Of a DNA stretch of 49,390 nt, positions 1 through 32,292 are shown piece by piece. A program made the translations under genes and the position numbers. The number at the start of each line of letters is the position of its first letter. Position 1 is the first letter of the stretch. The notes beneath the pieces are model-generated. The model made no database searches. It was not told the DNA's origin and worked only from the letters and a program-made list of their open reading frames with translations. This DNA comes from Thermoplasmata archaeon (lineage in GTDB: Archaea; Thermoplasmatota; Thermoplasmata; Lutacidiplasmatales; UBA184): assembly GCA_021816955.1 (NCBI GenBank), contig JAKAWP010000005.1, positions 1 through 49,390 on the forward strand. The letters are read 5' to 3'.

Positions 1-264
1 GGCGTCGGTACTTAACGAACCGTCGGCGGCGATCGCCGGTTCGGGCCGACCCGACGACCGTCGGGCCGGTCGGGTTGTTCCTCCGAAGACCGAGGCGGAG
101 AACGCGGCCGCCGGTGCGATGTTCTTCGACGCACCGCCTCGTACGATCCCCGCGGCGCGGGGTCTCCGGCGAAGGCCGGGGCGAACCGGCGATTCGCCCG
201 AGGCGCGCGGCCGCTCCGGACGGCTCGACACCGTTTTCCGCCGCCGACCCCGTAGGGCCGGCCG

Positions 265-1460: not shown

Positions 1461-1468
1461 GAAAATAC
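1461..1468 (+). promoter_or_regulatory. TATA-like box (GAAAATAC) upstream of the 1501 operon
   Basis: The only AT-rich octamer in the 1392-1500 intergenic region. It lies about 35 nt upstream of the GTG at 1501, a spacing compatible with an archaeal TATA and a short 5' UTR. Confidence 0.3.
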
Positions 1469-1500
1469 CGACGACCCGTCGTCCTCGTCGGTGGTATCCC

Positions 1501-3684
1501 GTGAGCGGTTCAACCGACAGTCTTCGGCTCCCGCGGACGACGGCCCGATCGATCGCGCTCGTGCTGGCCCTGGTGAGCGTGGCCGCGGCCGGAGGGTTAG
1601 CGACCGGGATCGATCCCGCGGCGCGGCCCATCCCGAGAACCAGCGGAGCGATCTTTGCGGTCACCGACCCGATGGCCTTGGTCGTCGCGCCGGGCGCGGC
1701 GTCGCTCCGGCCCGGCGACACCATTTCGCTGAACGCGACGTGGACCGGGGTCCCGGTCGACTGCACGCTCGGCTCCGGCTGGTTCTCCTGGAGCTTCACG
1801 GGAGCCCCGGTCGCCCAGATCGTCGGGGCGTTTGACGGCCCGACGGTCACCCTCGTCGGCGACGCCTCGGCGCCGGGGGCCGAGGTCGCGTCGGTCCGAG
1901 CGGCCGTGACGGTGGCGTGCCCGAGCGGGGTCGAGACCCTCGAGCGCGTCGCGAACGCCACGCTAAGCGGAAACCTCCCGCTCGCGCTGCTCTCGCTCTC
2001 GGTCGGACCGAACCCGGTTCCGCCCGGAGCGACCGTCGTCGTTCGGGGAACGGTCGGGGGCGGCCTCCCGCCGTACCGAGTCGAGGTCGACTGGCGAAAC
2101 GGCGACACTTCGAACGCGGTCGTCGGCCCGAACGGCTCGTTTGCGCTCTCGACCACCGACCCGCCCGGCCGCTCCGATCCCACCCTGACCTGCTCGGACG
2201 CGGCGGGCGACGAGCTCCGAGTGACGGTGCCGACACCTGTCGTGTCGAGCGCCGGCCCGGCCGTCGCGATCGACGGCCCCGACCGAGGGGTCGCTGCCGG
2301 GTCGGCGGCCCCGTTCCGTGCGGTCGTCTCCGGCGTCTTCGGGGACGTCTCGTACGCGTGGGCGGTCAACGGGCGTCGAGTGGCCGGGGCGAACACGTCG
2401 GCGTGGACGCTGCCGACCCGCTCGCCCGGCCTCGTGAACGTCTCGGTCGACGTCGAGGCTCCGTTCGGGCTCGTGGCGTCGTACTTCGACCTCGTGGTCG
2501 GCGCCCCGATCACGCTCCGTCCCCTTCCGCTCTCGGAGGTCGTCGGGGCGAGCGCGACGACGACGACCAGCTATCTCGAGCTGCGCGGAGGCGTCCCGCC
2601 GCTGGTCGCGAGCGGGCCTGATTTCTCCGCGACGGTGGACGGACCCGGGCTGCTGGCGTTTCCGTGGCCCCGCTCGCTCCCCGACCCTGGGATGGTCGAC
2701 GTGCGCGTGCGGGATAGCGAGAACGGGAGCGCCGCCGCGGCGTTCGCGCGTCCGGTGCCTTCCCCGTCACCCGATCTCGCGCTCACTGGATTCGCCGAGG
2801 GCACGAACGGGACGTGGCAGTTCGGCGTGGACGTCCGCATCTCGGGCGGCTCCCCACCGTTCGACCTCACGATCCGTTCCGACCCACCGCCGACCGTCTT
2901 CGGTGCCACGGCCGTCGCCCTCGGCTCGGCGCGATCGTGGTTTGGCGCCGGGCGATTCGCCCCCGCGACGGGGGTCACCTTCACCGTCGAAGTGGTCGAC
3001 GGGGTGGGCGCTACGAACGCCAGCTCGATCGTCGCGTACGCGGACCCGCCCCTCCGAACAGCGTTCGACCTCGAGGTGGGAACGGGGAACATTTCCCCGG
3101 TCATCGCATTCGTCGGGACCGTGTACGGAGGCGATCCCCCGTACACGATCTCGATCACGGTCGGGGGCAGCGAGAGCTGGACCGCGAGTGACCCGGCGCC
3201 GGGGCTCGTCGAGTACGACGTGCCGACGAACGGCTCGGGACCCGTCGACGTGGCCTGGGTGGTCCGGGACTCGGCCAACCAGAGCACGGGCGGTTCCGCG
3301 ATCGTGGTCGTTCCGGCGGGCGTGCCGGGAGCGACGGCCGGAGGCAACGAGCTCGTCGTCGATCTATTGCTCGCGGGACTGATTGTCGCAGCGCTCGGTG
3401 GGGCTGTCGCTCTCCGGGTACGCCGGAGAGAATCCTCCGGCCGTCCCCGAAGGGCGGGCGACGTTCCGGCGGTGATTCGAACGCTGGCCGGCGAGCCGGC
3501 CGGCCTCGAGCGGGAGCTCCTCGAGGCGCTCGCCGTCGACCAGGGGCTTCCGTCGGACGCCGTGCGCCGGGAGGTCGACCGGATGATCGAGGACGGTCGG
3601 CTGCAGAAGGTCGAATCGACCGACGGGGTCGATCGGTGGAGGATCGCCCCACCAATCGGCCCGGGATCCGGAGCGCGGCCATGA
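1501..3684 (+). CDS. secreted Ig/PKD-like repeat surface protein with C-terminal TM helix and cytoplasmic winged-helix-like domain
   Basis: 727 aa. N-terminal signal/anchor (RSIALVLALVSVAAAGG). About six ~90-100-aa modules carry recurring GG-x-PP-[YFL] motifs (GGGLPPYRVEVDW, GGVPPLVASG, GGSPPFDLTI, GGDPPYTISI). TM helix LVVDLLLAGLIVAALGGAVAL (3352-3414) is followed by RVRRRE and an ~89-aa tail (3415-3681) with a helix-turn-helix/wing-like pattern (LERELLEALAVDQGLPSDAVRREVDRMIEDGRLQKVESTDGVDRWRI). The stop overlaps the next start (ATGA at 3681). Confidence 0.8.
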   Translation: MSGSTDSLRLPRTTARSIALVLALVSVAAAGGLATGIDPAARPIPRTSGAIFAVTDPMALVVAPGAASLRPGDTISLNATWTGVPVDCTLGSGWFSWSFTGAPVAQIVGAFDGPTVTLVGDASAPGAEVASVRAAVTVACPSGVETLERVANATLSGNLPLALLSLSVGPNPVPPGATVVVRGTVGGGLPPYRVEVDWRNGDTSNAVVGPNGSFALSTTDPPGRSDPTLTCSDAAGDELRVTVPTPVVSSAGPAVAIDGPDRGVAAGSAAPFRAVVSGVFGDVSYAWAVNGRRVAGANTSAWTLPTRSPGLVNVSVDVEAPFGLVASYFDLVVGAPITLRPLPLSEVVGASATTTTSYLELRGGVPPLVASGPDFSATVDGPGLLAFPWPRSLPDPGMVDVRVRDSENGSAAAAFARPVPSPSPDLALTGFAEGTNGTWQFGVDVRISGGSPPFDLTIRSDPPPTVFGATAVALGSARSWFGAGRFAPATGVTFTVEVVDGVGATNASSIVAYADPPLRTAFDLEVGTGNISPVIAFVGTVYGGDPPYTISITVGGSESWTASDPAPGLVEYDVPTNGSGPVDVAWVVRDSANQSTGGSAIVVVPAGVPGATAGGNELVVDLLLAGLIVAALGGAVALRVRRRESSGRPRRAGDVPAVIRTLAGEPAGLERELLEALAVDQGLPSDAVRREVDRMIEDGRLQKVESTDGVDRWRIAPPIGPGSGARP

Positions 3685-4082
3685 CGAGCCGTTCTTGGGC
3701 GTCGATCGGGGGAAGCGCGCTCGCGATCGGACTGGTGCTCCTCGTGACGGCCGGCTCGGCCGTCGCGACCGGGGCTCCGCCGAACGCGGGCGCGCACCCC
3801 GTCGTGACGGCGGCCGCCTCCCGGGGGTCGCACGCGGCGAGCCCCGTCGGCAACTTCTCGGCCGCCATCGACCGGCTCGTCGAGCTCGTGGGGATCGCCG
3901 GCGCCGGCCTGCTCGCGCTCGTCTGGGCACGCGTCGCGCTCAGCTGGTTCTCGCACGACACGATGAAGAAGGTCCAGGCCAAAGAACGGGCCCGGGACGC
4001 GCTCGTCGGGACGCTCCTCTTCGTCGCCGCGGTGAGCGGGCTCGTCTGGGCGCTCGCGCAGTGGGTCTTCACCGGCGCGTAA
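3681..4082 (+). CDS. VirB2/TrbC/CedA1-like conjugative-type pilin candidate (two-helix hairpin protein with long leader)
   Basis: 133 aa. Signal-like N-terminus (ALAIGLVLLVTAGSAVA), a spacer, then hydrophobic helix 1 (residues ~62-90, AIDRLVELVGIAGAGLLALVWARVALSWF). A short basic loop (SHDTMKKVQAKERARD) is followed by hydrophobic helix 2 (LVGTLLFVAAVSGLVWALAQWVF). ATGA overlap with the upstream gene. A GGGGGA RBS-like stretch follows before the next gene. Confidence 0.55.
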   Translation: MTSRSWASIGGSALAIGLVLLVTAGSAVATGAPPNAGAHPVVTAAASRGSHAASPVGNFSAAIDRLVELVGIAGAGLLALVWARVALSWFSHDTMKKVQAKERARDALVGTLLFVAAVSGLVWALAQWVFTGA

Positions 4083-4090
4083 GGGGGACG

Positions 4091-5233
4091 ATGAACTTCT
4101 GGTCGATCGTTCAGCCGATCCTCTTCGCGCTGTTCGCCCTCCTCACGGCCGCGCTGTCGGCGATCATCGCGCCGACGTACGACCACCTGTTCGTTCCGGA
4201 GATGCAGCCCGCGGCGCTCTACCCTCCGCTCACGGGGGCGGCGGCGCACGGCTCGGTCTTCGGGAACGCTGCCGCGTTCAGCGGCTACTTGCTCACGGGC
4301 ATCGTGGACCCGGCGATCGCGCTCGGGGCGATCGGCCTCGGCGTCGCCTATCTCGTCCGCAGTGTCGGCGGCCGCTGGGCGCTCTCGATCGACTCGTTCC
4401 TCGTCCGGCTCATCGTCGCCGTCTTCGGCGCGAACTTTGCGCTCCCGATCGCGGGCGGGGTGCTCAGCGTCGCCGGGGCCGCCTTTCCCGTCTTCTCGGG
4501 ATGGGACGGCGGCGCCTGGCAACACTGGGACAACCTCGCCGGCCCCGGCCTCGTCTCGTTCTCCTGGTCGAACGGGGCGCTCGCGTTCATCCTGGCGTTC
4601 GCCCTGTTCGCCCTCGTCTTCCTCCTCGCGCTGGCGATCGGGGTGCGGGACGGGCTCCTCGCCGTCCTCTTGGTCGTCCTTCCGCTCTTCACCCTCCTCG
4701 CGCCGTTCCCGATCGCTTCCCAGCTCGCCCGTCGGGCGTGGCTCCTCTTCGTCGAGCTGGCGTTCTTGCCGTGCGTCCTCGTCATCCCGCTCGAGCTCGC
4801 CGTCGGAAGTCCGAACATCGTCCTGCTCCTGTCGCTCCTCACCGTAGCGCTCGCCTCGCCGTACCTACTCTCGCTGAGCGGCCAGTCGTTGAGCGGCTTC
4901 GGGTTCCCGAGCGCCGGGACGACGGTGGCGTACGCCACCCAGCGGGGTCTTTCGAGCGCGTCGTACGCCGGGGCGAACTACACCGCTCCGCTCGCGGGCG
5001 GGACGGCCGGCGGTGCCGTGACCTCCGGCGGGCGGTCGGCCGGGCTTGCCCTCCGCTCGGCGGGTTCGGCGGGGCTTCCGGCCGCCGGCCCGGTGCTCGT
5101 CGCCGAGGCCGTCGGCCGGGGGGCTTCGCACCTGATCCACCACCTGCGCCCGGGCGGACCCGACCGGGACGGCGGCGCCCACGGGCGAGTCCGCTTCCGG
5201 GTTTCGCGTGACCGGCCGACGGAACTCCCATGA
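4091..5233 (+). CDS. polytopic membrane protein, VirB6/TrbL/CedA-like candidate
   Basis: 380 aa taken from ATG 4091 of ORF 3695..5233. There are at least six hydrophobic segments and a Gly/Ala/Ser-rich C-terminal tail. It sits between the pilin-like gene and the VirB4-like gene. The stop overlaps the next start (ATGA at 5230). Confidence 0.5.
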   Translation: MNFWSIVQPILFALFALLTAALSAIIAPTYDHLFVPEMQPAALYPPLTGAAAHGSVFGNAAAFSGYLLTGIVDPAIALGAIGLGVAYLVRSVGGRWALSIDSFLVRLIVAVFGANFALPIAGGVLSVAGAAFPVFSGWDGGAWQHWDNLAGPGLVSFSWSNGALAFILAFALFALVFLLALAIGVRDGLLAVLLVVLPLFTLLAPFPIASQLARRAWLLFVELAFLPCVLVIPLELAVGSPNIVLLLSLLTVALASPYLLSLSGQSLSGFGFPSAGTTVAYATQRGLSSASYAGANYTAPLAGGTAGGAVTSGGRSAGLALRSAGSAGLPAAGPVLVAEAVGRGASHLIHHLRPGGPDRDGGAHGRVRFRVSRDRPTELP

Positions 5234-6015
5234 GCGATCCCGTCGACGGCCCGCTGATCGTCACCCTGCCGGACCGGGTCGACCGACGGCTTTCGCTCGG
5301 TCCGTTCCCATCCGCTCGGGAGGCGCTCAAGTTCGCCGGCTACGCGGCGGCGGGCGCTCCGATCGTCCCGTGGGTCGGAGCGCTCGGCTGGCTCCCGTTC
5401 GTCGTCGCTGGCTTCGTGGTCGCCACCGTTCGCCCGGGAGGCCGGGGCCTCGACGCGCGGATGGCCGACTGGCTCGCCTACCGATTCCGTCGGGCGGCCG
5501 GACCGGCCGGGGTTCAGCGCCGGTCGGTTCGTCTCTCCCACGGCTTCGTGCGGGTCAGCCCCGGCCGGTTCGCCGTCGTGATCCGGGCGGAAGGGATCCC
5601 CCTTTCCTTTCTCCCGCCCGAGGAGCACCGGCAGCGGTTCGAACGGTACCGCGAGGTGATCCGGGCGGCCCGCCCGTCGTTCGCGGTGGTGGCGACGTCG
5701 ATCCCGATCGACGAAGCCGCGGTCGCCCCGGCCCGTTCGCCGCTCGTCGACCGCGAGTCGGACGGCGAAGCGGCGGCCCGCCGCGCCTACGAGGAGCTGA
5801 GCCGCCTGCTCGCTCGCCGGCGGCGCCACCGACGGGTCTACTTCGCCCTCTTCGGAGACGGCGCAACGGCCGATACTCTTCGGTCGCTCGAGGGACGGGC
5901 CACTCGGGTTGTCGAGGGGCTGGCCGGCCTCGGCGTCTCGCCGACCCGACTGTACGGTCCGGCCCTCGAACGCGCCGCTCGATCGTTCGGCTGGGCGACC
6001 GGAGGACCGACGTGA
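5230..6015 (+). CDS. membrane protein with PrgI/TcpE/VirB3-like N-terminus and soluble C-terminal domain
   Basis: 261 aa. The N-terminus (LPDRVDRRLSLGPFPSAREALKFAGYAAAG) is followed by two hydrophobic segments (APIVPWVGALGWLPFVVAGFVVATV), the layout of VirB3-type proteins. The following ~170-aa soluble domain (FAVVIRAEGIPLSFLPPEEHRQRFERYREVI...) resembles N-terminal domains of Gram-positive/archaeal VirB4 proteins, by memory only. GTGA overlap at 6012. Confidence 0.45.
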   Translation: MSDPVDGPLIVTLPDRVDRRLSLGPFPSAREALKFAGYAAAGAPIVPWVGALGWLPFVVAGFVVATVRPGGRGLDARMADWLAYRFRRAAGPAGVQRRSVRLSHGFVRVSPGRFAVVIRAEGIPLSFLPPEEHRQRFERYREVIRAARPSFAVVATSIPIDEAAVAPARSPLVDRESDGEAAARRAYEELSRLLARRRRHRRVYFALFGDGATADTLRSLEGRATRVVEGLAGLGVSPTRLYGPALERAARSFGWATGGPT

Positions 6016-6374
6016 CCGCGCCGGCCGCGCGGCTCGACATGGAGCCGTTCCGGTTCGCGGTCGTCCTAGCGAGCGTCGCGGCCGTGCTGAGCGTCGCGGA
6101 CCCGCTGCTGTCCGTCGCCGCGGCGACGCTCGGGGCGCTGGCGATCGGCTCGGCGCTCGTGACGATCGCCCGCGAGCGCCGCGCGGGGCACCCCATCGCG
6201 GCTCCGACCGTCTTCCTGGGAGTGGCGGCCGTCGGCGCAGCCGTCTACCTCATCGGTCCCGTCGGGCTCGGGGCCGTGCGGGCGATCCTGTTTGCCGGCA
6301 CGCTGTGGCCGCTCGCGGGGACGCTCCGCGCACCGTCCGGGCCGCCCCGAGCGGCGGAGGGAGGGCGCCCGTGA
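6012..6374 (+). CDS. small polytopic membrane protein (3-4 TM), unknown function
   Basis: 120 aa from GTG 6012 (alternative ATG 6039), in the frame of ORF 5208..6374. The protein is almost entirely hydrophobic (FAVVLASVAAVLSV..., LGALAIGSALVTIA, VFLGVAAVGAAVYLIGPVGLGAV). Both ends are coupled by GTGA overlaps. Confidence 0.6.
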   Translation: MTAPAARLDMEPFRFAVVLASVAAVLSVADPLLSVAAATLGALAIGSALVTIARERRAGHPIAAPTVFLGVAAVGAAVYLIGPVGLGAVRAILFAGTLWPLAGTLRAPSGPPRAAEGGRP

Positions 6375-8044
6375 AGCGAAGCGACGCGCGGCGCGCCGAG
6401 GGGCCGACCTGGCTCAAGATCGGCCGTCAGTACGCCGCGCCGATCCTGCTCGCCGAGCTTCCCCGCGAACTCGCCTTCGGCGCGGTCGCCCGGATCGCTC
6501 CGCCCCGCGAGACCGTGGAGCTTCACCTCGAAGCCGTCGAGCTCGGGAGCGAGGAAGCCCGGACGCTCGTCCACCGCGCGCGCGCCGTCGCCGAAGCGGA
6601 GCTCGCGCACGGCGCAGGGACGGAAACGGCTCCGCTGGAGGCCGCCCGGGCGAGCGCGGAGGAGCTCGGGGGCCGACTCGCCCGCCGGGAAGAGCTCCTG
6701 TTGAAGGTCGGAATCCGGTTCGTCGCGATGGCGTCGTCCGTGGCGGACACCACGGCGCTCGGCGCGACGGTCGAGTCGCGACTGTCGTCCCTCGGCTTTC
6801 GGATCGCCGAGAGCCGCTACCAGAGCCGGGCCGCGCTCGCCCCGCTCGGCTCGTCGGCGGGGGGCGCCCGGCCCGCCGCGTTCTTCCACACCCTGCCGAC
6901 GGACAGCGTCGCCGCGTTCTACCCGTTCGGCGACGAGGCGGTGATCGAACGGCACGGACTGCTCGTCGGCCTCACGCTCGACGAAGCGGCACCGGTCTTT
7001 CTCGATCGGTGGGGCGCGGCGAGCTACTCGTGGGGGTACTTCGGCGCGACCGGCTCCGGCAAGACGTTCAGCGCCGCGCTCACGGTGCTCCGCAGTCGCT
7101 GGCTCACCCCGGACCTCACTGTGATCGTCCTCGACCCGCTCGGCGAGTTCGGTCCGCTCGCCCGCGCGATCGGCGGGTCGGTGTGGGCGCCGGGTAGCTC
7201 CGACGGCCCGCGGTTGAACCCGCTCGACCCGGTGAGCGCGGGCGGCGACCGACGGGAAAAGGCCGGCCGGGTCGCCGCGCACCTCGCCGCGCTCTTTCCG
7301 AGCCTGCGGGACGAGGAAGCGGCGGCGCTCGACCGGGCCGTCTACCGACTGTACTCGGACGGGCCGGCCGTCCCGACGCTCGGCGATCTCGCGGAACGAG
7401 TCGCCGGCGATCCGGCCGGACCGCCCCGGCTCTCCCAGCTGCTCGAGGTGTTCCGCTCAGGGTCGCTCGCCGGATTGAGCGGTCCGACGACCGTCCCTCC
7501 GCTCGATCGGTTCACCGTGGTCGACCTCTCCCACGCGGCGGAGAACCACCTCCCGTTCCACCTCGCCTACACGCTCGACTGGGCGTACGGGCAGCTGCGG
7601 GACCGGCCGGGGCGAAAGCTCCTCGTCGTCGACGAGGCGCACCTGCTCGCCCGGCACCCGACGACGGCCGACTTCTTCGACCGGATCGTCCGGCACATCC
7701 GCCATTACTCCGCCGGCCTCCTCGTTCTCAGCCAGGCGCCCGACGACTTTCTCGCCACGCCGAGCGGCCGGTCGATCCTGCGGAACTTGCGAGCGACATT
7801 CCTCTACCGCTTGAGCCACGTCTCCGACGAGGTACGGCGGTTCTACGGACTCACCTCGGGCGAGGCCGACTGGCTGCCGCGCGCGCGGCTTCCCCGGGAA
7901 GCCGGCTACGCCGAAGCCCTCTTGCGGACCGGGGACGACCACCTCCCGCTCGCCGTCGTCGCCGCATCGGCGGAGTACGAATTCCTCTCGCACCTCCTCG
8001 ACCGCCCGGCGAGCCGACCGCGACCCGACCGGCCGACGGCGTGA
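6371..8044 (+). CDS. VirB4/TrbE/CedB-family T4SS ATPase
   Basis: 557 aa from GTG 6371 of ORF 5909..8044. N-terminal pattern IGRQYAAPILLAELPRELAFGAVARI. Walker A GATGSGKT (7043-7066). Walker B LLVVDE-AH (7619-7636). Downstream LLVLSQAPDDF motif. The gene context contains VirB2-, VirB6- and VirB3-like genes. Confidence 0.8.
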   Translation: MKRSDARRAEGPTWLKIGRQYAAPILLAELPRELAFGAVARIAPPRETVELHLEAVELGSEEARTLVHRARAVAEAELAHGAGTETAPLEAARASAEELGGRLARREELLLKVGIRFVAMASSVADTTALGATVESRLSSLGFRIAESRYQSRAALAPLGSSAGGARPAAFFHTLPTDSVAAFYPFGDEAVIERHGLLVGLTLDEAAPVFLDRWGAASYSWGYFGATGSGKTFSAALTVLRSRWLTPDLTVIVLDPLGEFGPLARAIGGSVWAPGSSDGPRLNPLDPVSAGGDRREKAGRVAAHLAALFPSLRDEEAAALDRAVYRLYSDGPAVPTLGDLAERVAGDPAGPPRLSQLLEVFRSGSLAGLSGPTTVPPLDRFTVVDLSHAAENHLPFHLAYTLDWAYGQLRDRPGRKLLVVDEAHLLARHPTTADFFDRIVRHIRHYSAGLLVLSQAPDDFLATPSGRSILRNLRATFLYRLSHVSDEVRRFYGLTSGEADWLPRARLPREAGYAEALLRTGDDHLPLAVVAASAEYEFLSHLLDRPASRPRPDRPTA

Positions 8045-8144
8045 CGGCCGAGGTCCGCCGGAGCGTCGGACGGGCGGTGGGTCATGCCGTCGCCCGTTCG
8101 GCTCGAACACGAGGCTTATCTGCCGGCCCCGGCGACGATCAATC

Positions 8145-8852
8145 GTGACGACGCCGGGCGGGACGACGGAGACCGGCCGGCCCCGGCGTCGGTCGAGCTG
8201 GAGCCTGAAGTCGATCGTCGAGGAGGTCGCCGGCCGTCCGATCGACGACTTCCAGGAGCCGGGGCGTACCCCGTCCCCGTACGTCCAGCACCTCTCGGCC
8301 CGGCGCGAACGCCGCGCTGCGCAAGGGCCCCGACCGACCGCCGACGACGACCCGCCCGGGGCCGGGACCGTCGCGCCCGACGGCCCGGAGGCCCGGCCGC
8401 TCGACCCCGTCGAGCGAATCGTGCCGCCGCTCGTCGGTCCGACCGGTCGATTCTACCACGAGGCGGACGAGCTCCATCACCGTCCGACGCTGCGCGCGAT
8501 GAATCCGTCCGGCCGGACCAATCCGATCCTGCGGCCCGAGCGGCTGTACCTCCACTACCTGCTCCTCCACCTCGACCGGCTGCCGACGGCGGGGCTGCGG
8601 TACCTCTCGCACGCGGTCGCGGAGGAGCTCGCCCACCGCGCCGAAGAACGGCGAGCGCCGGCCCGCGCCTCACGGCCGGCGCACGGGGATGCCGAGAGCG
8701 CGGCCGGTGCGCAGCGCGCGCCGGTAGACGACCGGGTCGACCTCCACTCCGACGGCCCGGCGACCGAGACGGGCGGCCGACCAGAGGGTCGTGCCGGTGC
8801 CGCAGAACGGGTCGAGGACCGTGTCGCCCCGGACGCTGAACATCCGGAGTAG
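8145..8852 (+). CDS. hypothetical soluble protein (possible last gene of the T4SS-like operon)
   Basis: 235-aa ORF with GTG start. Third positions are GC-rich and the segments look protein-like (SLKSIVEEVAGRPIDDFQEP; RFYHEADELHHRPTLRAMNPSGRTNPILRPERLYLHYLLLHLDRLPTAGLRYLSHAVAEELAHR). I recognise no family. The last ~60 codons are low-complexity and run antisense into the methyltransferase gene. Confidence 0.45.
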   Translation: MTTPGGTTETGRPRRRSSWSLKSIVEEVAGRPIDDFQEPGRTPSPYVQHLSARRERRAAQGPRPTADDDPPGAGTVAPDGPEARPLDPVERIVPPLVGPTGRFYHEADELHHRPTLRAMNPSGRTNPILRPERLYLHYLLLHLDRLPTAGLRYLSHAVAEELAHRAEERRAPARASRPAHGDAESAAGAQRAPVDDRVDLHSDGPATETGGRPEGRAGAAERVEDRVAPDAEHPE

Positions 8853-9488
8853 CCGATCGGCGAGCTCGCTCGGGAACGCCCCGGTGCGCGATCGCGGACC
8901 GCCCTGTCGCGTCCCGCGGATGTCGTCCCAGACCTGGGTGAACCAGCGGTCGCGCTCCGCGCGGCTGTAGGCGCTCGCCGCGCGCGCCGGGTCGTGGCGG
9001 GCGAACGCGCGAAGCGGCCCTTTGCGGAAGAGGAGGACGTACTCGCAGTCGAGCGTCACGTAGGCGTTCGGCGGGAGGAACCCCGACCCGAGGAAGGCGT
9101 TCGGCTTGTTCGTCGGCTTCTTCCACAATAGGTACGGCAGCGGCGTGAAGCCGATCGCGACGCACCGCTCGAGGATCGTGGCGTGGTTCGGCCAGAGGCG
9201 GAAGACGCCGTCGACCCGGCGGAGCGCGTCGCCGATGTTCACCGCGAGCAGTCCCCCGGGCAGGAGGACCCGATAGATCGATCGCCACGCGTCCGCTAAG
9301 ACGTCGTGCATCCCGGCGTAGTCGCGCGCGCCGAAGGCGCGGAACTGGGCGTCCCATTGCGGGATCATCGGGTACGGCGGGCTCGTCAGCGCGAACGCGA
9401 CGGAGTCGTCCGCGACGCCGTCGAGCCGCCGGGCGTCGCCGAGGAGCAGGCGGACCGGCATCGGACGGGGGGACTCGCCGGGGCGCAT
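8670..9488 (-). CDS. beta-class DNA methyltransferase (SPPY motif; probable N4-cytosine, possibly N6-adenine)
   Basis: 272 aa from ATG 9488 of ORF 8670..10169 (alternative ATG 9461). Catalytic motif IV TSPPYP (9372-9383) lies N-terminal to SAM motif I DPFCGTGTT, which is the beta-class order. The N-terminal 227 codons of the listed ORF are Ala/Ser/Arg-rich, antisense to the HPS gene, and rejected. Confidence 0.8.
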   Translation of the reverse strand: MRPGESPRPMPVRLLLGDARRLDGVADDSVAFALTSPPYPMIPQWDAQFRAFGARDYAGMHDVLADAWRSIYRVLLPGGLLAVNIGDALRRVDGVFRLWPNHATILERCVAIGFTPLPYLLWKKPTNKPNAFLGSGFLPPNAYVTLDCEYVLLFRKGPLRAFARHDPARAASAYSRAERDRWFTQVWDDIRGTRQGGPRSRTGAFPSELADRLLRMFSVRGDTVLDPFCGTGTTLWSAARLGRRAVGVEVDPVVYRRALRTGRALGIPVRRP

Positions 9489-15147: not shown

Positions 15148-16467
15148 ATGAACAGGGTTCCGTCACCGGCGGCGCGTCCTCCGATCGATTGGCGGGCGGT
15201 CTTGGCCGTGGGAATCGTCATCGTTGTGGGCGCCTCGGTGACGTCAATCGCGCTCGCTCGCTCGCCGGCCGGGCCGTCCCGGCCGGTGTCGATGACGAAC
15301 GAGACCGCCCTGCTCGGCTCCGTCTTCCATCCCGGCATCATCCTCTCCGGCGATTCGAACGCGACCACGACCCTGCTCGGAGGGATCGGCGTCTACGCGA
15401 AGCAAACCGATTTCTCCCTCCCCGTGCTCGCGGCGATCGACTGGTCGTCGGGAACGCCGACCCTGACGAATCTCACCCCGGAGATCAGCGACTACTTCTG
15501 GAACGGAGGCATCTACAGCATTGTCTGGAACGGTTCGGCGTGGCTATTGACGGGCCAAGCGGCGTGGGGCGGTGTGAACTCCGGCGCGGTGGTCAGCTGG
15601 CAAGGCGGCCACTGGGTGAACCTGACGGCGCCGTTCCGGGCCGCGACGATCGGGGGCGGGATCTGGGCGGCCGCGTGGAACGGCACGGCGTGGCTTCTCG
15701 GAGGGAACGGCACCGCGGACGGACCGGTCCTCTTCTCGCTCACCGGTCGATCGGTAACGAACCTCTCTCGCGCGGTGACCTGGCACGGCACCCGAAGCTG
15801 GTACCAGTTTCTCGCGTGGGGCGGCCACGATTGGCTGATCGCGGGCGAAGGGATTCTCGGTGTGCTCCGCGGGTCGACGTTCACCGACGTCTTCCCGGCG
15901 TCGCCGTACGCCGGTAGCGGCGTGTACGCGGGGAGCTGGACCGGCAAGGCGTGGCTGGTCGGAGGCGGGGCGGGAAGGAGCGGCTGGATCGAGGGAACGA
16001 CGTTCGTCCCCGGTCCGACGTTGCCGTCCGAGTTCAACCAAGCGATCCTTTGGGTGCACGCCGTCCCCGGCGGGTGGCTCTTCGCAGGGAAGGGCGGGAC
16101 GGCCGCCACTCCGTTCGAACCGGTCGCGGCGTTTTGGACGGGCGCGCCCGGGAACGGATCGATGACCGACCTGACGGGGCTCTTGCCGACGGCTTTTGAA
16201 GGGGGCGAGGTGTACGGCGGGGTGATGCTTCCGCCGAGCGCCGGCCCGCTCCGTTACGCCCTCTACGGCGAAGGCGGATACAATTCGACCACCGGGCACG
16301 GCGTCGGAGCTCTCGCCGGCGTGACGGTCGAATCTTCGGCGGGCGGAACGGTCCGCATTGCCGAGGGGGGGCCGATCGCGGCCCAGCACACCAACGCGCT
16401 CGTGTGGGCGATTTCCGTCGGCTCGCCGTTCGTCCAAGGACTTGGGAGGGAGGAGGGACGCGCATGA
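15148..16467 (+). CDS. N-terminally anchored extracellular repeat protein (beta-propeller-like W-x-G-x-x-W-L-x-x-G blades), probable glycoprotein
   Basis: 439 aa. TM anchor AVLAVGIVIVVGASVTSIAL. Motifs repeat every ~45-50 aa: WNGSAWLLTG, WNGTAWLLGG, WGGHDWLIAG, WTGKAWLVGG, PGGWLFAG. Ten N-x-S/T sequons by manual count. Confidence 0.75.
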   Translation: MNRVPSPAARPPIDWRAVLAVGIVIVVGASVTSIALARSPAGPSRPVSMTNETALLGSVFHPGIILSGDSNATTTLLGGIGVYAKQTDFSLPVLAAIDWSSGTPTLTNLTPEISDYFWNGGIYSIVWNGSAWLLTGQAAWGGVNSGAVVSWQGGHWVNLTAPFRAATIGGGIWAAAWNGTAWLLGGNGTADGPVLFSLTGRSVTNLSRAVTWHGTRSWYQFLAWGGHDWLIAGEGILGVLRGSTFTDVFPASPYAGSGVYAGSWTGKAWLVGGGAGRSGWIEGTTFVPGPTLPSEFNQAILWVHAVPGGWLFAGKGGTAATPFEPVAAFWTGAPGNGSMTDLTGLLPTAFEGGEVYGGVMLPPSAGPLRYALYGEGGYNSTTGHGVGALAGVTVESSAGGTVRIAEGGPIAAQHTNALVWAISVGSPFVQGLGREEGRA

Positions 16468-21289: not shown

Positions 21290-21766
21290 ATGAACCGGAC
21301 GGACCGAGCGGCGATCGTCCTCGGAGCGCTCTTCGCGCTCGCGTTCGCGCTCTCGGTGGTGATGCTGGTCACCGACCAGAACCTGCGGACCGACTTCGGC
21401 ACGATCTCGAGCGGTTACTATGCGCACTGGTACGTCGTCCTCGTCACCGCGGTCGCGGACGCGGCCGGCGCCGCGCTATTGTGGACGGTGCGGGAACGTC
21501 GGACGCTCGTGGGCGGGACGATCGGGGCCGGCCTGCTCGTCGCGGTCTTTCTCGGCGACATCCTCACCTATAGCCAGGTCGGTTTTTCGTCCGCGAGCCA
21601 GTTCGCGCAGTACCTGTTCGGCATCACCTATTACGGGGGGAATATCCGGTACCTGTACGACGCCGTGCTCGCTGTGTACGTGGTCGCCTTCGCCGTCGGA
21701 CTCGCGAGCGTCCTCCTTTCCCGGCGATCGGGCGTCTCGTCGGAGCCGCCTCCGACGTCGCCGTGA
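21290..21766 (+). CDS. small integral membrane protein (4 TM), unknown function
   Basis: 158 aa from ATG 21290 (alternative ATG 21266), in the frame of ORF 20393..21766. Four clear hydrophobic segments (AAIVLGALFALAFALSVVMLV; WYVVLVTAVADAAGAALLW; IGAGLLVAVFLGDIL; AVLAVYVVAFAVGLASVLL). Confidence 0.65.
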   Translation: MNRTDRAAIVLGALFALAFALSVVMLVTDQNLRTDFGTISSGYYAHWYVVLVTAVADAAGAALLWTVRERRTLVGGTIGAGLLVAVFLGDILTYSQVGFSSASQFAQYLFGITYYGGNIRYLYDAVLAVYVVAFAVGLASVLLSRRSGVSSEPPPTSP

Positions 21767-26979: not shown

Positions 26980-27004
26980 AGCTTCCGACGGCCCGGCCGG
27001 CTCG

Positions 27005-28423: not shown

Positions 28424-28449
28424 CCGTCCCCGACGGGCGTCACCGCGGC

Positions 28450-29784: not shown

Positions 29785-29807
29785 GGATAGATGGAGGCGC
29801 CGGCCGT

Positions 29808-30677: not shown

Positions 30678-30753
30678 ACCCGACCGACCGGCCCCAAGGC
30701 CATAACGGGTTCCGTCCGAGGATCGAGGGGGACGGCCGGACCCCTACCGTCAT

Positions 30754-32268: not shown

Positions 32269-32292
32269 CGGCCGGAAACGGCCGCCGACCGC

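What the first reader, a model, noticed from the sequence alone, without database searches (positions are those of the whole stretch)
1461..8852. Chromosomal, translationally coupled VirB2/VirB6/VirB3/VirB4-like operon: a minimal T4SS (Ced/Ted-like) apparatus in a GC-rich, apparently non-crenarchaeal archaeon
Seen: six same-strand genes (1501-8044) are chained by start/stop overlaps or tiny gaps. These are ATGA at 3681, an 8-nt GGGGGACG spacer at 4083-4090, ATGA at 5230, GTGA at 6012 and GTGA at 6371. The products are an Ig-repeat surface protein, a two-helix hairpin protein with a long leader (VirB2/TrbC topology) and a polytopic membrane protein (VirB6/TrbL/CedA-like). They continue with a PrgI/VirB3-like membrane protein, a small 3-4 TM protein and a Walker A/B ATPase with VirB4-type N-terminal and C-terminal motifs. 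The window contains no relaxase, VirD4/TraG coupling ATPase, integrase or replication gene. The flanks are housekeeping genes (fibrillarin; HPS-RraA; tRNA-Glu) and composition looks the same as the flanks. Established: VirB4 is the signature ATPase of conjugative T4SS. The crenarchaeal Ced system (CedA/A1/A2/B) and the Thermoproteales Ted system use VirB6-like, VirB2-like and VirB4-like parts for DNA import rather than plasmid export. Inference: this looks like a host-encoded DNA-exchange/uptake or conjugative-type pilus machine with a different gene set and order. Distinctive features are the adhesin-wHTH first gene, a possible split VirB3/VirB4 module, and an adjacent methyltransferase. As far as I know, this architecture has not been characterised.
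Basis: partly seen in the sequence, partly recalled or inferred. Interest (0 to 1): 0.88.

Follow-up and report, generated by a model that had tools for sequence, protein, structure and literature searches.

The report
Chromosomal conjugation-like pilus machine, Thermoplasmata
A soil archaeon of the class Thermoplasmata carries a stripped-down relative of the bacterial conjugation machine (adhesin, pilin, membrane channel, split motor ATPase), fixed in its chromosome between housekeeping genes and lacking every plasmid-mobilising gene, so it looks like an undescribed 'domesticated' cell-to-cell transfer apparatus comparable to the crenarchaeal Ced and Ted DNA-exchange systems.

Summary
Seven same-strand genes (1501-8852) are real, and six of them are chained by 4-nt overlaps or an 8-nt spacer. 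Their coding composition matches the flanks.

- g6 is a VirB4-family ATPase, not HerA.
- g4 is the detached N-terminal part of that VirB4, carrying a VirB3-like membrane hairpin, so VirB4 is split. A small membrane protein (g5) is encoded between the two halves.
- g2 belongs to the T4SS_pilin/TrbC (VirB2) family. This is shown through its relatives.
- g3 is homologous to proteins annotated TrbL_3 (VirB6-like).
- g1 is a surface Ig/PKD-type protein with a membrane anchor and a conserved cytoplasmic winged-helix tail.

The whole block sits in the same place (RidA-fibrillarin / MTase-HPS-RraA) in 13 distinct related loci (six public-assembly contigs, 206 kb to 1.8 Mb, plus 10 species genomes of which three repeat them). 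The core module recurs in other chromosomal contexts in deeper Thermoplasmata lineages. No coupling ATPase, relaxase or integrase is in the 49-kb window or within about 10 kb of those relatives, whereas more distant relatives in coupling-ATPase-linked clusters do carry them.

It is therefore a domesticated minimal type IV secretion system, analogous to but not orthologous with Ced/Ted. DNA exchange is the most likely function but remains inferred. I found no published characterisation.

The parts
1461..1495 (+). Putative promoter and ribosome-binding region. An A-rich box GAAAATAC (1461-1468) lies 40 nt upstream of the g1 start. GGTGGT (1490-1495) is Shine-Dalgarno-like.
   Evidence: Equivalent A-rich boxes and GGTGG motifs lie at the same distance in the close homologous loci. 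Function is inferred, not shown.
1501..3684 (+). g1, 727 aa. Signal peptide or N-terminal TM (aa 18-36), then an extracellular Ig/PKD-like region of about 580 aa with 11 N-x-S/T sequons. A TM anchor follows (aa 618-640; 3352-3420), then a cytoplasmic winged-helix domain (aa 655-716; 3463-3648).
   Evidence: Deep homologs carry PKD/Big domains. The TM + wHTH tail is conserved in all 14 homologs, including the most distant loci (alignment A2). A homolog's tail hits Rrf2 (6e-5), GntR, MarR and TrmB, all sub-threshold. PDB profile hits are MarR/FadR/Fur/Lrp-type wHTH proteins at E 0.04-0.3. This is the fastest-evolving component (about 26% identity) and is absent in L018.
3681..4082 (+). g2, 133 aa. 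VirB2/TrbC-type pilin precursor: signal peptide (aa 1-29), a variable linker, a conserved N-F-S sequon (aa 58-60; 3852-3860), then a two-helix hydrophobic hairpin with a basic loop (aa 55-133; 3843-4079).
   Evidence: Pfam T4SS_pilin PF18895 scores: window 0.4; homologs L020 1.5e-3, L023 2.3e-4, L022 2.1e-7 (31.3 bits, above the 26.6-bit cut-off). The g2 profile hits the L024 pilin, which itself hits PF18895 (1.9e-7) and TrbC PF04956 (1.3e-6). The AF2 model has helices 7-29, 55-89 and 94-131, pLDDT 75. The sequon is conserved in the close-clade homologs and the nearer deep relatives (L020, L021).
4091..5233 (+). g3, 380 aa. Polytopic membrane protein (6-8 predicted TM segments) with a Gly/Ala/Ser-rich tail. 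VirB6/TrbL-like channel component.
   Evidence: The g3 family HMM scores 60.9 and 41.8 bits over nearly full length on proteins with precomputed PF19590 TrbL_3 hits that sit directly upstream of full-length VirB4. 24 of the 119 listed g3 homologs carry precomputed PF19590. Direct Pfam/NCBIfam/PDB searches found nothing. The AF2 model is all-helical but poor (pLDDT 61).
5230..6015 (+). g4, 261 aa. VirB3-like TM hairpin (aa about 31-75; 5320-5454) fused to the first part of the VirB4 N-terminal domain (aa 76-261). This is the N-terminal half of a split VirB4.
   Evidence: The g4 HMM hits residues 1-290 of full-length VirB4 representatives (E 1.8e-24 to 1e-11). The L023 homolog hits VirB4_plasma model positions 35-276 at 1.3e-12. 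3 of 17 members hit VirB4_plasma and 3 of 17 hit SCO6880_fam. P0416, a cluster-mate of a matched full-length protein (P0258), carries a weak PrgI hit.
6012..6374 (+). g5, 120 aa. Small membrane protein (at least 2 TM segments by hydropathy, perhaps 3-4), poorly conserved in sequence. Its position between the two VirB4 halves is conserved, with 4-nt overlaps on both sides.
   Evidence: An uncalled equivalent ORF exists in L027. No family match in any library.
6371..8044 (+). g6, 557 aa. C-terminal part of VirB4: the rest of the N-domain plus the ATPase domain. Walker A GATGSGKT (aa 225-232; 7043-7066). Walker B LLVVDE (aa 417-422; 7619-7636).
   Evidence: NCBIfam: conju_CD1110 3.9e-36 (model positions 204-690 of 752), VirB4_plasma 7e-24, TraC 6e-13, VirB4_CagE 1e-10, HerA 5e-3. 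PDB 4AG5 VirB4 C-terminal domain 2.1e-14. Motifs.
8145..8852 (+). g7, 235 aa. Cytoplasmic protein with an N-terminal motif RRxSWSLKxIVEEVAGRP, a Pro-rich and probably disordered linker, and a C-terminal helix ERLYLHYLLLHxDRL..LRYL..AV.EE. The last ~65 aa are unique to the window (8657-8852 is my estimate, not a tool result); the ORF's last 183 nt (8670-8852) overlap the convergent MTase.
   Evidence: Conserved after the ATPase in the close clade, and as the second downstream gene in L020/L021. No Pfam, NCBIfam, PDB, PADLOC or PHROG match.
8670..9440 (-). Neighbour, not part of the module. Orphan N4/N6 DNA methyltransferase, convergent with g7.
   Evidence: PF01555 3.4e-29 and PADLOC MTase_II 1e-85. 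It is syntenic in the close clade but separated from g7 by a MNT/HepT pair in L006/L007. It is absent from L020/L021.

Best explanation
The locus is a host-owned ('domesticated') minimal type IV secretion system of the monoderm/archaeal (MPF-FATA-like) lineage. It is fixed in the chromosome of a high-GC soil Thermoplasmata lineage and inherited vertically.

**Shown**
- One translationally coupled operon encodes the following:
  - a VirB2/TrbC-type pilin (g2);
  - a VirB6/TrbL-type polytopic channel protein (g3);
  - a VirB4 motor ATPase made as two polypeptides, g4 (VirB3-like membrane hairpin plus the start of the VirB4 N-domain) and g6 (the rest plus the ATPase);
  - a small membrane protein (g5) encoded between the two halves;
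  - a fast-evolving surface Ig/PKD-type protein (g1) whose cytoplasmic tail is a conserved winged-helix domain;
  - a conserved cytoplasmic protein of unknown fold (g7).
- There is no coupling ATPase, relaxase or integrase.

**Inferred mechanism**
- The pilin is exported by Sec, cleaved by signal peptidase I and probably N-glycosylated at the conserved sequon.
- It is held in the membrane, then extracted and polymerised by the membrane-tethered g4/g6 ATPase on the g3 platform. This gives a conjugative-type pilus or short conduit.
- g1 mediates contact with a partner cell of the same kind. Its high divergence fits a specificity determinant.
- The apparatus then moves DNA between cells, as Ced and Ted do.
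- The wHTH tail of g1, and/or g7, would take the substrate-docking role that the coupling protein and relaxosome play in plasmid systems.

**Confidence by step**

| Step | Confidence |
|---|---|
| It is a T4SS-derived apparatus | about 0.9 |
| It is domesticated and vertically inherited | about 0.9 |
| It builds a pilus | about 0.6 |
| The cargo is DNA | about 0.4-0.5 |
| Direction of transfer | unknown |
For: **VirB4 identity and the split**
- Curated models rank VirB4 families far above HerA.
- The only PDB hit is the VirB4 C-terminal domain 4AG5.
- Walker A and B motifs are intact.
- g4 and g6 align to consecutive parts of full-length VirB4 proteins.

**Pilin**
- Family members reach the PF18895 and PF04956 thresholds.
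- The hairpin with a basic loop and the conserved sequon are present.

**VirB6-like channel**
- HMM hits of 61 and 42 bits to TrbL_3-annotated neighbours of VirB4.
- A 92-bit hit to the L027 equivalent.

**Domestication**
- The order DUF885-RidA-fibrillarin-g1..g7-MTase-HPS/RraA is identical in 13 distinct related loci (six public-assembly contigs plus 10 species-representative genomes, three of which repeat them). The host contigs reach 1.8 Mb.
- Component identities (26-60%) are close to but below those of the flanks (62-84%).
- GC and GC3 match the flanks.
- All ORFs are intact and the overlaps are kept.
- The same module occurs in other housekeeping contexts in deeper lineages with GC from 30% to 71%.
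- No mobility genes are in the window or within 10 kb in those loci.
- More distant relatives do carry them. L022 has an integrase and TraG. L024 and L025 have a T4CP-like ATPase directly after VirB4. This gives a plausible mobile ancestor.

**DNA as cargo (weak evidence)**
- A wHTH domain is conserved on g1 in every relative.
- The precedent is Ced/Ted, which use the same three core parts to move chromosomal DNA without a relaxase or T4CP (PMC9905601).
- The L027 copy lies next to endonuclease V/MGMT and Ogg.
Against: - No experiment or expression data bear on the function.
- The window's own g2 and g3 do not reach any curated family threshold. Both assignments are transitive through relatives.
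- The TrbL_3 label rests on precomputed annotations that I could not reproduce live. PF19590 gave no hit at all in the Pfam copy on hand.
- Structure prediction did not help. The g3 model is poor, and the g2 hairpin gives only non-specific Foldseek hits.
- No HerA/NurA/Rad50/ParA genes lie nearby as they do in Ted loci.
- A coupling ATPase or relaxase could be encoded elsewhere in the genome. In Cuniculiplasma a TraG/VirD4 gene is distal (PMC5155288).
- wHTH domains also mediate protein-protein contacts.
- Patescibacteria show that a chromosomal, relaxase-less T4SS of this lineage can serve a non-conjugative lifestyle function (PMC12102498).
Confidence: 0.6

Rival explanations
1. The apparatus is the same T4SS-derived pilus and channel, but it serves a function other than DNA exchange. 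Candidates are adhesion or biofilm formation, contact with symbionts or hosts (Thermoplasmata host DPANN archaea), or transfer or uptake of proteins, lipids or metabolites. The chromosomal T4SS of Patescibacteria is proposed to work in this way.
For: - There is no coupling ATPase, relaxase or recombination gene nearby.
- The first gene is a large, rapidly diverging Ig/PKD adhesin.
- Pilin arrays with fused extracellular domains occur in relative L022, reminiscent of Patescibacteria pilin arrays (PMC12102498).
- The same Pfam pilin family (PF18895) is one of the profiles used to find the Patescibacteria pilins.
Against: - A cytoplasmic wHTH domain is conserved on the adhesin in every relative.
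- Ced and Ted are the only experimentally or structurally studied archaeal systems of this composition. Ced imports DNA, and Ted is proposed to do so (PMC9905601).
- No effector-like or immunity-like genes lie in the operon.
Confidence: 0.32
2. The locus is an ordinary or decaying integrated conjugative element, or a plasmid remnant, whose relaxase, coupling protein and integrase lie outside the sequenced window.
For: - The VirB4 is of the conjugative MPF-FATA type.
- Distant relatives sit in clusters with mobility genes: integrase and TraG near L022, and a T4CP-like ATPase directly after VirB4 in L024/L025.
- Relaxases of archaeal elements are generally unrecognisable (PMC4027160, PMC12857230).
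Against: - The insertion context between fibrillarin and HPS-RraA is identical in all 13 distinct related loci.
- Divergence is proportional to that of the flanks.
- Composition matches the host.
- All genes are intact, with conserved translational coupling.
- No integrase, T4CP or repeats were seen in 49 kb of window plus 5 kb further upstream.
Confidence: 0.04
3. The locus is not a T4SS at all. It would be a HerA/FtsK-type ATPase with unrelated membrane proteins, for example a defence system such as MADS working together with the adjacent methyltransferase.
For: - Pfam sees only DUF87 (HerA central domain) in g6.
- PADLOC gives mad8 at 1.3e-10 and HerA at 3.9e-8 for g6, and mad2 at 7.5e-13 for the MTase.
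Against: - VirB4 models score 26 orders of magnitude better than mad8 or HerA, and over about 470 residues rather than a Walker-B patch.
- The MTase matches generic Type II MTases at 1e-85. It is separable from the operon.
- g1-g5 and g7 have no PADLOC hit.
- g2, g3 and g4 link independently to pilin, TrbL and VirB4 N-domain families.
Confidence: 0.02

Closest known systems
Ced system (CedA/CedA1/CedA2/CedB) of Sulfolobales, Desulfurococcales and Aeropyrum
   Same: It is chromosomal and host-owned. It is built from a VirB2-like pilin, a VirB6-like membrane protein and a VirB4-like ATPase. It has no relaxase or coupling protein and is vertically conserved (PMC9905601).
   Different: - No detectable sequence relationship. 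The only Ced-named hit is a local Walker-B match to CedD at 7.8e-9.
- The phylum differs (Thermoplasmata).
- The pilin here has a cleavable signal peptide. CedA1 is reported as unprocessed.
- VirB4 is split here.
- Extra conserved parts are present: adhesin-wHTH, g5 and g7.
- UV induction and import function are unknown here.
Ted system (TedA/TedB/TedC) of Thermoproteales
   Same: It is a domesticated pilin + VirB6-like + VirB4-like set. Its pilin has a signal peptide cleaved by signal peptidase I (PMC9905601).
   Different: - Ted loci are associated with HerA, Rad50 and ParA/VirC1-like genes. None is in this window.
- The Ted genes are often dispersed, whereas here they form one tightly coupled operon.
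- No sequence comparison with TedA/B/C was possible, because no reference sequences were on hand.
Chromosomal T4SS of Patescibacteria (CPR)
   Same: It is derived from MPF-FATA and is chromosomal. It lacks a relaxase in most genomes. It has VirB2-like pilins detected with PF18895 or PF04956, together with VirB3, VirB4 and VirB6 (PMC12102498).
   Different: - It is bacterial.
- It is often associated with TrsD and pilin arrays.
- No VirB3-VirB4 fusions or splits were reported there.
- It is essential for epibiotic growth, and no such lifestyle is known for this archaeon.
Conjugative-type clusters in other Thermoplasmata and uncultured organisms (loci L022, L024, L025), and archaeal conjugative plasmids (pNOB8 family, pT33-3)
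   Same: They carry homologous pilin, TrbL_3-like, VirB4 N-part and VirB4 proteins in the same order. L022 even has the adhesin-wHTH first gene and the small membrane protein.
   Different: - They carry a T4CP-like ATPase next to or near VirB4. L022 also has an integrase and a DNA methylase, so it is probably mobile.
- VirB4 is full-length (a VirB3-VirB4 fusion) in L024 and L025.
Cuniculiplasma (Thermoplasmatales) cluster CSP5_1185-1189 / CPM_1190-93
   Same: It was described as a membrane protein (arCOG05340), VirB4 (arCOG04034), a multipass protein (arCOG05369) and a Thermoplasmatales-only membrane protein in cultured Thermoplasmata chromosomes (PMC5155288).
   Different: It was only listed in a genome paper, with no analysis of pilin, VirB6 or the split, and no function. 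I could not fetch that locus to test orthology. Those genomes also have a distal TraG/VirD4 gene.
Actinobacterial SCO6880-family protein plus short VirB4
   Same: VirB4 is likewise short (for example Phytomonospora, 569 aa). g4 and two relatives weakly match the SCO6880 family model in the membrane-hairpin region.
   Different: The match is weak (E 2.6e-4, 20 bits against a 60-bit cut-off). The actinobacterial protein is larger (model length 477). Whether the two splits share an origin was not tested.

Membership tests
Type IV secretion system (VirB4-based, MPF-FATA-like) | A VirB4-family ATPase with intact Walker A and B motifs | tested here: met
   - conju_CD1110 at 3.9e-36 over model positions 204-690, VirB4_plasma 7e-24, TraC 6e-13, VirB4_CagE 1e-10, against HerA 5e-3.
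- PDB 4AG5 at 2.1e-14.
- Motifs.
- Scores are below the equivalog cut-offs, so this is a divergent family member and not a member of any named subfamily.
Type IV secretion system (VirB4-based, MPF-FATA-like) | VirB4 N-terminal domain and a VirB3-like membrane anchor | tested here: met
   These are supplied by a separate gene, g4.
- The g4 HMM matches residues 1-290 of full-length relatives at up to 1.8e-24.
- A homolog matches VirB4_plasma positions 35-276 at 1.3e-12.
- A predicted TM hairpin is present.
- The PrgI label is only a weak precomputed hit on P0416, a cluster-mate of a matched full-length protein.
Type IV secretion system (VirB4-based, MPF-FATA-like) | A VirB6/TrbL-like polytopic membrane protein | tested here: met
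   The link is transitive only.
- The g3 HMM scores 60.9 and 41.8 bits on TrbL_3-annotated proteins adjacent to VirB4.
- 24 of 119 homologs carry a precomputed PF19590 annotation.
- Direct scans of g3 found nothing.
- PF19590 could not be reproduced in the live Pfam copy.
Type IV secretion system (VirB4-based, MPF-FATA-like) | A VirB2/TrbC-type pilin | tested here: met
   - Family members exceed the Pfam gathering scores: L022 31.3 bits and L024 31.5 bits for PF18895; L024 29.0 bits for PF04956 TrbC. The L026 pilin carries a precomputed TrbC hit.
- The window protein itself is sub-threshold (E 0.4).
- It is 35-64% identical to 14 of the 15 homologs (28% to L023) and 12% to the Pfam-positive L024 pilin.
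Conjugative T4SS / integrative conjugative element | A coupling ATPase (VirD4/TraG/TcpA) | tested here: not met
   No such domain was found in 30 further predicted window genes. None is in the flanks of L001, L004-L021, L026 or L027. The rest of the genome could not be searched.
Conjugative T4SS / integrative conjugative element | A relaxase, an integrase, att repeats, and composition foreign to the host | tested here: not met
   No relaxase or integrase domains were found. Composition equals the flanks. The chromosomal position is conserved across species. Archaeal relaxases may be unrecognisable (PMC4027160). att repeats were not searched for explicitly.
Ced system | Orthology to CedA, CedA1 and CedB | tested here: inconclusive
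   No Ced-named model matched except a local hit to CedD at 7.8e-9, restricted to residues 414-458. I do not know whether CedA, CedA1 or CedB models are in the libraries, and no reference sequences were on hand. Ced and Ted components themselves show no mutual sequence similarity (PMC9905601).
Ced system | DNA-damage-induced expression and DNA import | not testable with these tools
   This needs transcriptomics and genetics.
Ted system | Co-localisation with HerA, Rad50 and ParA/VirC1-like genes | tested here: not met
   None was found in the window or in the flanks of related loci. One distant copy (L027) neighbours endonuclease V/MGMT and Ogg.
Domesticated (host-owned) T4SS, as a functional class | Chromosomal, vertically inherited, conserved synteny with housekeeping genes, no mobility genes | tested here: met
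   See (13 distinct related loci; contigs up to 1.8 Mb). The module also occurs in deeper lineages.
HerA/FtsK-type or MADS defence ATPase module | Best match to HerA or mad8, together with partner defence genes | tested here: not met
   HerA scores 5e-3 in NCBIfam and 3.9e-8 in PADLOC, and mad8 scores 1.3e-10. VirB4 scores 3.9e-36. No other operon protein has a PADLOC hit.

The most novel reading that the evidence does not exclude
Thermoplasmata (Euryarchaeota in the broad sense) possess an ancient, class-wide, host-owned conjugation-type machine that mediates contact-dependent exchange of chromosomal DNA without a relaxase or a coupling ATPase. In this reading, substrate DNA is recruited by a winged-helix domain on the cytoplasmic tail of the contact adhesin, and/or by g7. 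The VirB4 motor works as an obligate two-chain enzyme assembled around a small membrane protein. That would be a third and mechanistically distinct lineage of archaeal DNA-exchange apparatus. It would be the first outside the crenarchaeal thermophiles, and it would operate in abundant mesophilic soil and peat archaea.
Probability: 0.3. Interest if true: 0.85.

Novelty: new variant of a known kind. Interest (0 to 1): 0.68.

Why it matters
Apart from archaeal conjugative plasmids, Ced and Ted are the only archaeal T4SS-derived DNA-exchange systems described in the reviews I read, up to the end of 2025 (PMC9905601, PMC12857230). Both belong to hyperthermophilic Crenarchaeota.

This locus shows the same kind of domestication in a different phylum. 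It is descended from a different branch of T4SS, the branch shared with monoderm bacteria and Patescibacteria. It is widespread: the searches returned about 450-750 distinct homologs per component (g2, g3, g6), all those with a source name from Thermoplasmata MAGs. Sample names of several related MAGs point to soil and peat.

If the system moves DNA, it would be a route of chromosomal gene flow in abundant, uncultured mesophilic archaea.

It also offers natural variants that could inform T4SS mechanism:
- a VirB4 split exactly between the N-domain sub-parts;
- a pilus-type system with no coupling protein;
- an adhesin that reaches into the cytoplasm with a DNA-binding-type fold.

The related cluster with an integrase and TraG nearby (L022) and those with a coupling ATPase directly after VirB4 (L024, L025) give a ready comparison for how domestication strips a conjugative element.

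Tried and rejected
- **AF2 model of g3.** Built with a 36-sequence alignment, it gave pLDDT 61 and pTM 0.29. Foldseek against the PDB gave only E>1 ABC-transporter noise. This was uninformative. The alignment was shallow because only close homologs were eligible.
- **AF2 model of g2.** It gave pLDDT 75 and a clean helical hairpin. Foldseek hits were all E>2 generic helical hairpins, with no pilin among them. This approach cannot discriminate for a 75-residue hairpin.
- **Profile searches of the PDB.**
  - The g2, g3, g4 and g7 families found nothing meaningful.
  - The g1 tail found only sub-threshold wHTH regulators.
- **Pfam on 36 g3 homologs.** There were no hits at E<=0.01. Even proteins with strong precomputed PF19590 gave nothing live. 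I therefore treat PF19590 as absent from the Pfam copy on hand and rely on the precomputed labels plus my own HMM hits.
- **PADLOC and PHROGs.** These gave only generic ATPase and MTase hits. I rejected the MADS-like reading.
- **HerA reading.** Pfam labels g6 only as DUF87, but the curated VirB4 models and PDB 4AG5 reject a HerA assignment.
- **Methyltransferase as part of the system.** I rejected this. The gene is convergent, separable by a toxin-antitoxin insertion, and absent in deeper relatives.
- **NJ tree of about 130 VirB4 C-regions.** The window clade groups with the L020/L021 types and the Sysuiplasma/Methanomassiliicoccales types, all of them short forms. The tree has no support values, so I draw no conclusion about how many times the split arose.
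- **Genome-collection scan with g6.** It returned only 10 loci because single-protein patterns find close relatives only. Wider taxonomic breadth came from the representative search instead.

Full report
**1. The observation**

The window is about 72% GC throughout. Seven plus-strand ORFs between 1501 and 8852 have the coding signature expected at this GC: third-position GC is 0.84-0.93 and GC1 exceeds GC2.

- ATGA at 3681.
- TAA, then GGGGGACG, then ATG at 4080-4093.
- ATGA at 5230.
- GTGA at 6012.
- GTGA at 6371.

An independent public assembly of the same organism carries identical genes and adds 5 kb upstream. That stretch encodes FixC-type oxidoreductase, ferredoxin, DUF72, MOSC, DUF885, RidA and fibrillarin. 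Downstream lie:
- a convergent N4/N6 DNA methyltransferase (PF01555, 3.4e-29);
- an HPS(OMPdecase)-RraA fusion;
- tRNA-Glu.

A Pfam scan of 30 further predicted genes covered the remaining about 38 kb. It found only housekeeping and metabolic families: a Na/H exchanger, a phosphoesterase, glycosyl- and methyltransferases, agmatine deiminase, MsrA, TruA, aminotransferases, aldehyde dehydrogenases, an Opp-type ABC transporter and glutamine synthetase. It found no relaxase, coupling ATPase, integrase or replication domain. Six predicted proteins have no Pfam hit.

**2. What the proteins are**

*g6 (557 aa).*
- Curated NCBIfam models rank as follows: CD1110-family VirB4 3.9e-36 (query 15-478 on model 204-690 of 752), Mycoplasma ICE VirB4 7e-24, TraC 6e-13, VirB4/CagE 1e-10. 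HerA reaches only 5e-3.
- The single PDB sequence hit is the VirB4 C-terminal domain of Thermoanaerobacter, 4AG5, at 2.1e-14.
- Walker A (GATGSGKT) and Walker B (LLVVDE) are intact.
- So g6 is VirB4 family, but it lacks the first 200 or so model positions.

*g4 (261 aa) supplies them.*
- An exhaustive search of 1.8 billion representatives shows that, beyond the window's own clade, g6 aligns either to proteins of about 540-590 aa from their start, or to residues about 250-330 onward of proteins of 770-950 aa.
- An HMM of the g4 family hits exactly the preceding N-terminal stretch of those long proteins. For example, g4 covers P0260 residues 57-290 (E 1.8e-24) and g6 covers 322-852. In P0254 the ranges are 1-283 and 316-837.
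- Independently, the g4 homolog of locus L023 matches positions 35-276 of the curated VirB4_plasma model at 1.3e-12. Its partner ATPase matches positions 294-869.
- g4 begins with a predicted membrane hairpin. This aligns to the N-terminal region of full-length proteins, and a cluster-mate of one of them (P0416) carries a weak PrgI (VirB3) hit.
- VirB4 is therefore split. g4 is the VirB3-like anchor plus the first N-domain part, and g6 is the remainder.

*g5 (120 aa).* This is a hydrophobic protein with no family match. It lies between the halves with 4-nt overlaps on both sides. That arrangement is kept in nearly all relatives.

*g2 (133 aa).*
- It has a signal peptide and a variable Pro/Ala/Ser linker.
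- A highly conserved core of about 78 residues follows: NF[ST]..I.RLV.L..LAG.G.LALVWARVALSWFS.D..KK.QAK.RARDA..G.L.F.AA..GL.W.LA.WV.TG. This amounts to two hydrophobic helices joined by a basic loop.
- The window protein only grazes Pfam T4SS_pilin (E 0.4). Its homologs score 1.5e-3, 2.3e-4 and 2.1e-7, the last one above the gathering score.
- The g2 HMM finds the pilin of locus L024, which hits both T4SS_pilin (1.9e-7) and TrbC/VirB2 (1.3e-6).
- The equivalent gene in a Sysuiplasma/Methanomassiliicoccales locus is annotated TrbC.
- An N-x-S/T sequon sits immediately before helix 1 in the close-clade homologs and the nearer deep relatives (L020, L021). In an archaeon this suggests an N-glycosylated, outward-facing N-terminus. 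That is an inference.

*g3 (380 aa).*
- It is polytopic and has no direct hit in any library.
- Its family HMM scores 60.9 and 41.8 bits, nearly end to end, on two proteins. Both sit directly upstream of full-length VirB4 genes and carry strong precomputed TrbL_3 (PF19590) annotations.
- About a fifth of the listed g3 homologs carry the same precomputed label.
- PF19590 gave no hit at all in the live Pfam copy, even on the strongly annotated proteins. This link therefore rests on precomputed annotation plus my HMM.

*g1 (727 aa).*
- It has an N-terminal signal or anchor, then about 580 extracellular residues with 11 sequons. These are PKD/Big domains in deeper homologs.
- A TM helix and a basic stop-transfer sequence follow, then a cytoplasmic domain of about 70 residues.
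- That tail is conserved in all 14 homologs examined, down to loci whose ATPase is only 27-30% identical.
- One homolog's tail hits Rrf2 (6e-5), GntR, MarR, TrmB and IclR HTH families, all below threshold.
- The family profile finds MarR, FadR, Fur, Lrp, IscR, BlaI and CodY structures at E 0.04-0.3.
- This is consistent with a winged helix at the fold-class level, but it is not proven.

*g7.* It has two conserved motifs separated by a Pro-rich linker and no match anywhere.

**3. It is chromosomal and vertically inherited**

g6 has more than 470 homologs at 53-61% identity. All those carrying a source name are from Thermoplasmata MAGs, some on contigs of 0.6-1.8 Mb. g3 has 449 homologs and g2 has 745.

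I examined six contigs from public assemblies and ten species-representative genomes, which together give 13 distinct loci because three are the same contigs. In all of them the order DUF885-RidA-fibrillarin-g1-g2-g3-g4-g5-g6-g7-MTase(-)-HPS/RraA is the same.

Identities to the window:

| Gene | Identity to window |
|---|---|
| HPS-RraA | about 84% |
| MTase | 67% |
| RidA | 65% |
| fibrillarin | 62% |
| g2 | about 60% |
| g6 | 56% |
| g3 | 53% |
| g7 | 47% |
| g4 | 41% |
| g1 | 26% |

The operon has therefore diverged together with its flanks, somewhat faster, with the surface protein fastest. One genome lacks g1 (L018). Two have a MNT/HepT toxin-antitoxin pair inserted between g7 and the MTase.

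Deeper relatives keep the module in other housekeeping contexts:
- **L020 and L021** (ATPase 38-40% identical). A 1,790-aa PKD protein is followed by proteins of 139, 382, 225 and 145 aa, the ATPase, one extra gene, and then a g7 homolog. The block lies between an aminoacyl-tRNA synthetase and glycosyltransferases, with no MTase.
- **L027** (GC 30%). It has the pilin, a g3-like gene (92 bits), a g4-like gene (68 bits), an uncalled small TM ORF and the ATPase. These lie between TFIIB/UbiD/GcvT and endonuclease V/MGMT and Ogg.
- **L026** (Ca. Sysuiplasma / Methanomassiliicoccales-type). It has a TrbC pilin, g3-like and g4-like genes and the ATPase, among enolase, tRNA synthetases and topoisomerase I.

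None of these has a coupling ATPase or integrase within 10 kb.

Three more distant relatives do:
- **L022** has the same adhesin-wHTH. It then has four pilin-domain genes, a g3-like gene, a g4-like gene, a small TM gene and the ATPase. An integrase, a DNA methylase and TraG lie nearby.
- **L024 and L025** have a pilin, TrbL_3, full-length VirB3-VirB4 and a T4CP-like ATPase.

The simplest reading is that a conjugative element of this archaeal/monoderm type was captured by the host and lost its coupling and mobilisation functions. How many times this happened, and when, is not resolved. A rough NJ tree groups the window clade with the L020/L021 and Sysuiplasma types but has no support values.

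**4. How it most likely works**

*Shown.* The operon contains a pilin, a VirB6-like platform, a two-chain VirB4 with its own membrane anchor, an adhesin, and two accessory proteins.

*From established T4SS biology* (my own knowledge and PMC12102498, PMC9905601):
- VirB4 is the ATPase for pilus biogenesis and machine assembly.
- VirB3 tethers it to the membrane.
- VirB6 forms the inner-membrane channel or platform.
- VirB2 polymerises with lipid into a hollow pilus.

*Inferred sequence of events.*
- Sec export and signal-peptidase cleavage of g2, with glycosylation at the conserved sequon.
- Polymerisation on g3, driven by g4/g6.
- Partner recognition by g1.
- Passage of a macromolecule.

*Cargo.* I favour DNA, for three reasons:
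- The only archaeal machines of this composition that have been studied are Ced, which imports chromosomal DNA, and Ted, which is proposed to, both without a relaxase or T4CP (PMC9905601).
- A DNA-binding-type fold is conserved on the cytoplasmic side of g1 in every relative, including the probably mobile one.
- There are no effector-like genes in the operon.

These are weak arguments. The Patescibacteria precedent is a chromosomal, relaxase-less T4SS of the same broad lineage, with PF18895-type pilins, that is needed for an epibiotic lifestyle (PMC12102498). It makes a non-DNA role a serious rival, which I put at about 0.3. The direction of transfer cannot be inferred.

**5. Comparison with what is known**

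- **Ced and Ted.** Functionally and architecturally the locus resembles both. It is not a member of either. There is no detectable sequence relationship, only a local Walker-B hit to CedD. The phylum differs. There are no HerA, Rad50 or ParA neighbours.
- **By descent.** It belongs with MPF-FATA-type T4SS.
- **The split VirB4.** Short VirB4 forms occur in other Thermoplasmata and in Actinomycetota. g4 weakly matches the actinobacterial SCO6880 family. The split is therefore not unique to this system.
- **Literature.** Full-text searches found no paper describing a Thermoplasmata T4SS-derived system.
  - Beltran et al. [quoted passage not shown]
  - A T4SS review from the end of 2025 lists only crenarchaeal and Thermococcus plasmids among archaeal systems. 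Ced and Ted are covered in the Patescibacteria paper.
  - The Lutacidiplasmatales genome paper does not mention secretion, pili or VirB.
  - The one prior mention is a sentence in the Cuniculiplasma genome paper. It lists VirB4 (arCOG04034) with three membrane proteins.
  - NCBI's pipeline already names some homologs 'VirB4 family type IV secretion system protein'.

**6. Organism**

Every named homolog is labelled 'Thermoplasmata archaeon', and sample names point to peat and soil. High GC (about 69%), a genome of about 2 Mb and an acid-soil habitat are described for Lutacidiplasmatales. That fits the window, but I did not test it.

**7. Verdict**

It is a new variant of a known kind: a third lineage of host-owned archaeal T4SS-derived apparatus.

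Its distinctive features are:
- a split VirB4 with an intervening membrane protein;
- an adhesin with a cytoplasmic wHTH tail;
- a conserved g7;
- a PF18895-type pilin.

The identity of the parts and the domestication are well supported. The cargo and the mechanism are inferred.

Noticed in passing
window 151-245 (+): ARAGORN calls a tRNA-Ala(GGC) of 95 nt just upstream of the RidA gene. That is too long for a plain tRNA, so it probably carries an intron, or the call is imprecise.
   Followed up: no
L006 and L007, 12364-13172: A MNT/HepT (NTP_transf_2 + HepT-like) toxin-antitoxin pair is inserted between the g7 homolog and the methyltransferase in two related genomes. This shows that the MTase is a separable neighbour.
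   Followed up: partly
L018, 7149-7358: One species-representative genome lacks the adhesin gene g1 altogether. Fibrillarin is followed directly by the pilin gene, after an intergenic region of about 200 nt that still carries an A-rich box.
   Followed up: partly
L022, 2374-6126: A relative with an integrase, a DNA methylase and a TraG coupling ATPase nearby has four consecutive pilin-domain genes. Three of them carry N-terminal extracellular domains of 150-330 aa and Gly/Trp-rich linkers fused to the C-terminal pilin hairpin. This resembles the pilin arrays reported in Patescibacteria.
   Followed up: partly
L027, 11668-14247: In a 30%-GC Thermoplasmata contig, the five-gene core is immediately followed by an endonuclease V/MGMT-type fusion, with an Ogg-type glycosylase close by. 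This may be a link to DNA repair, or it may be coincidence.
   Followed up: no
window 8657-8852 (+) against 8670-9440 (-): The window's g7 has a C-terminal tail of about 65 aa that no homolog has. The g7 ORF's last 183 nt overlap the 3' end of the convergent methyltransferase. In other genomes g7 ends at 165-180 aa, and the corresponding DNA matches only in another frame. The cause may be a frameshift or a read-through extension in this organism.
   Followed up: partly
L024:1033-2307 and L025:6674-7741 (tool behaviour): Proteins with strong precomputed PF19590 (TrbL_3) annotations give no Pfam hit at all in the live hmmscan. The family is probably missing from the Pfam copy on hand. Live negative results for VirB6/TrbL_3 are therefore not informative.
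   Followed up: partly
window 21905-24018 (-) and 25495-35297: Agmatine deiminase and a CN-hydrolase (N-carbamoylputrescine amidase-like) lie side by side. Next to them is an unusually dense cluster of class-III aminotransferases and aldehyde dehydrogenases (three of each within 25495-35297), with a fourth aminotransferase at 41841-43421. An Opp-type ABC transporter follows. This looks like a polyamine/amino-compound catabolic island.
   Followed up: no
window 15148-16467, 16710-17474, 18685-20049, 21290-21766, 44810-45496: Five predicted proteins of 158-454 aa have no Pfam match at E<=0.001. Three of them lie next to methyltransferase and glycosyltransferase genes, so they may belong to cell-envelope biosynthesis.
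   Followed up: no
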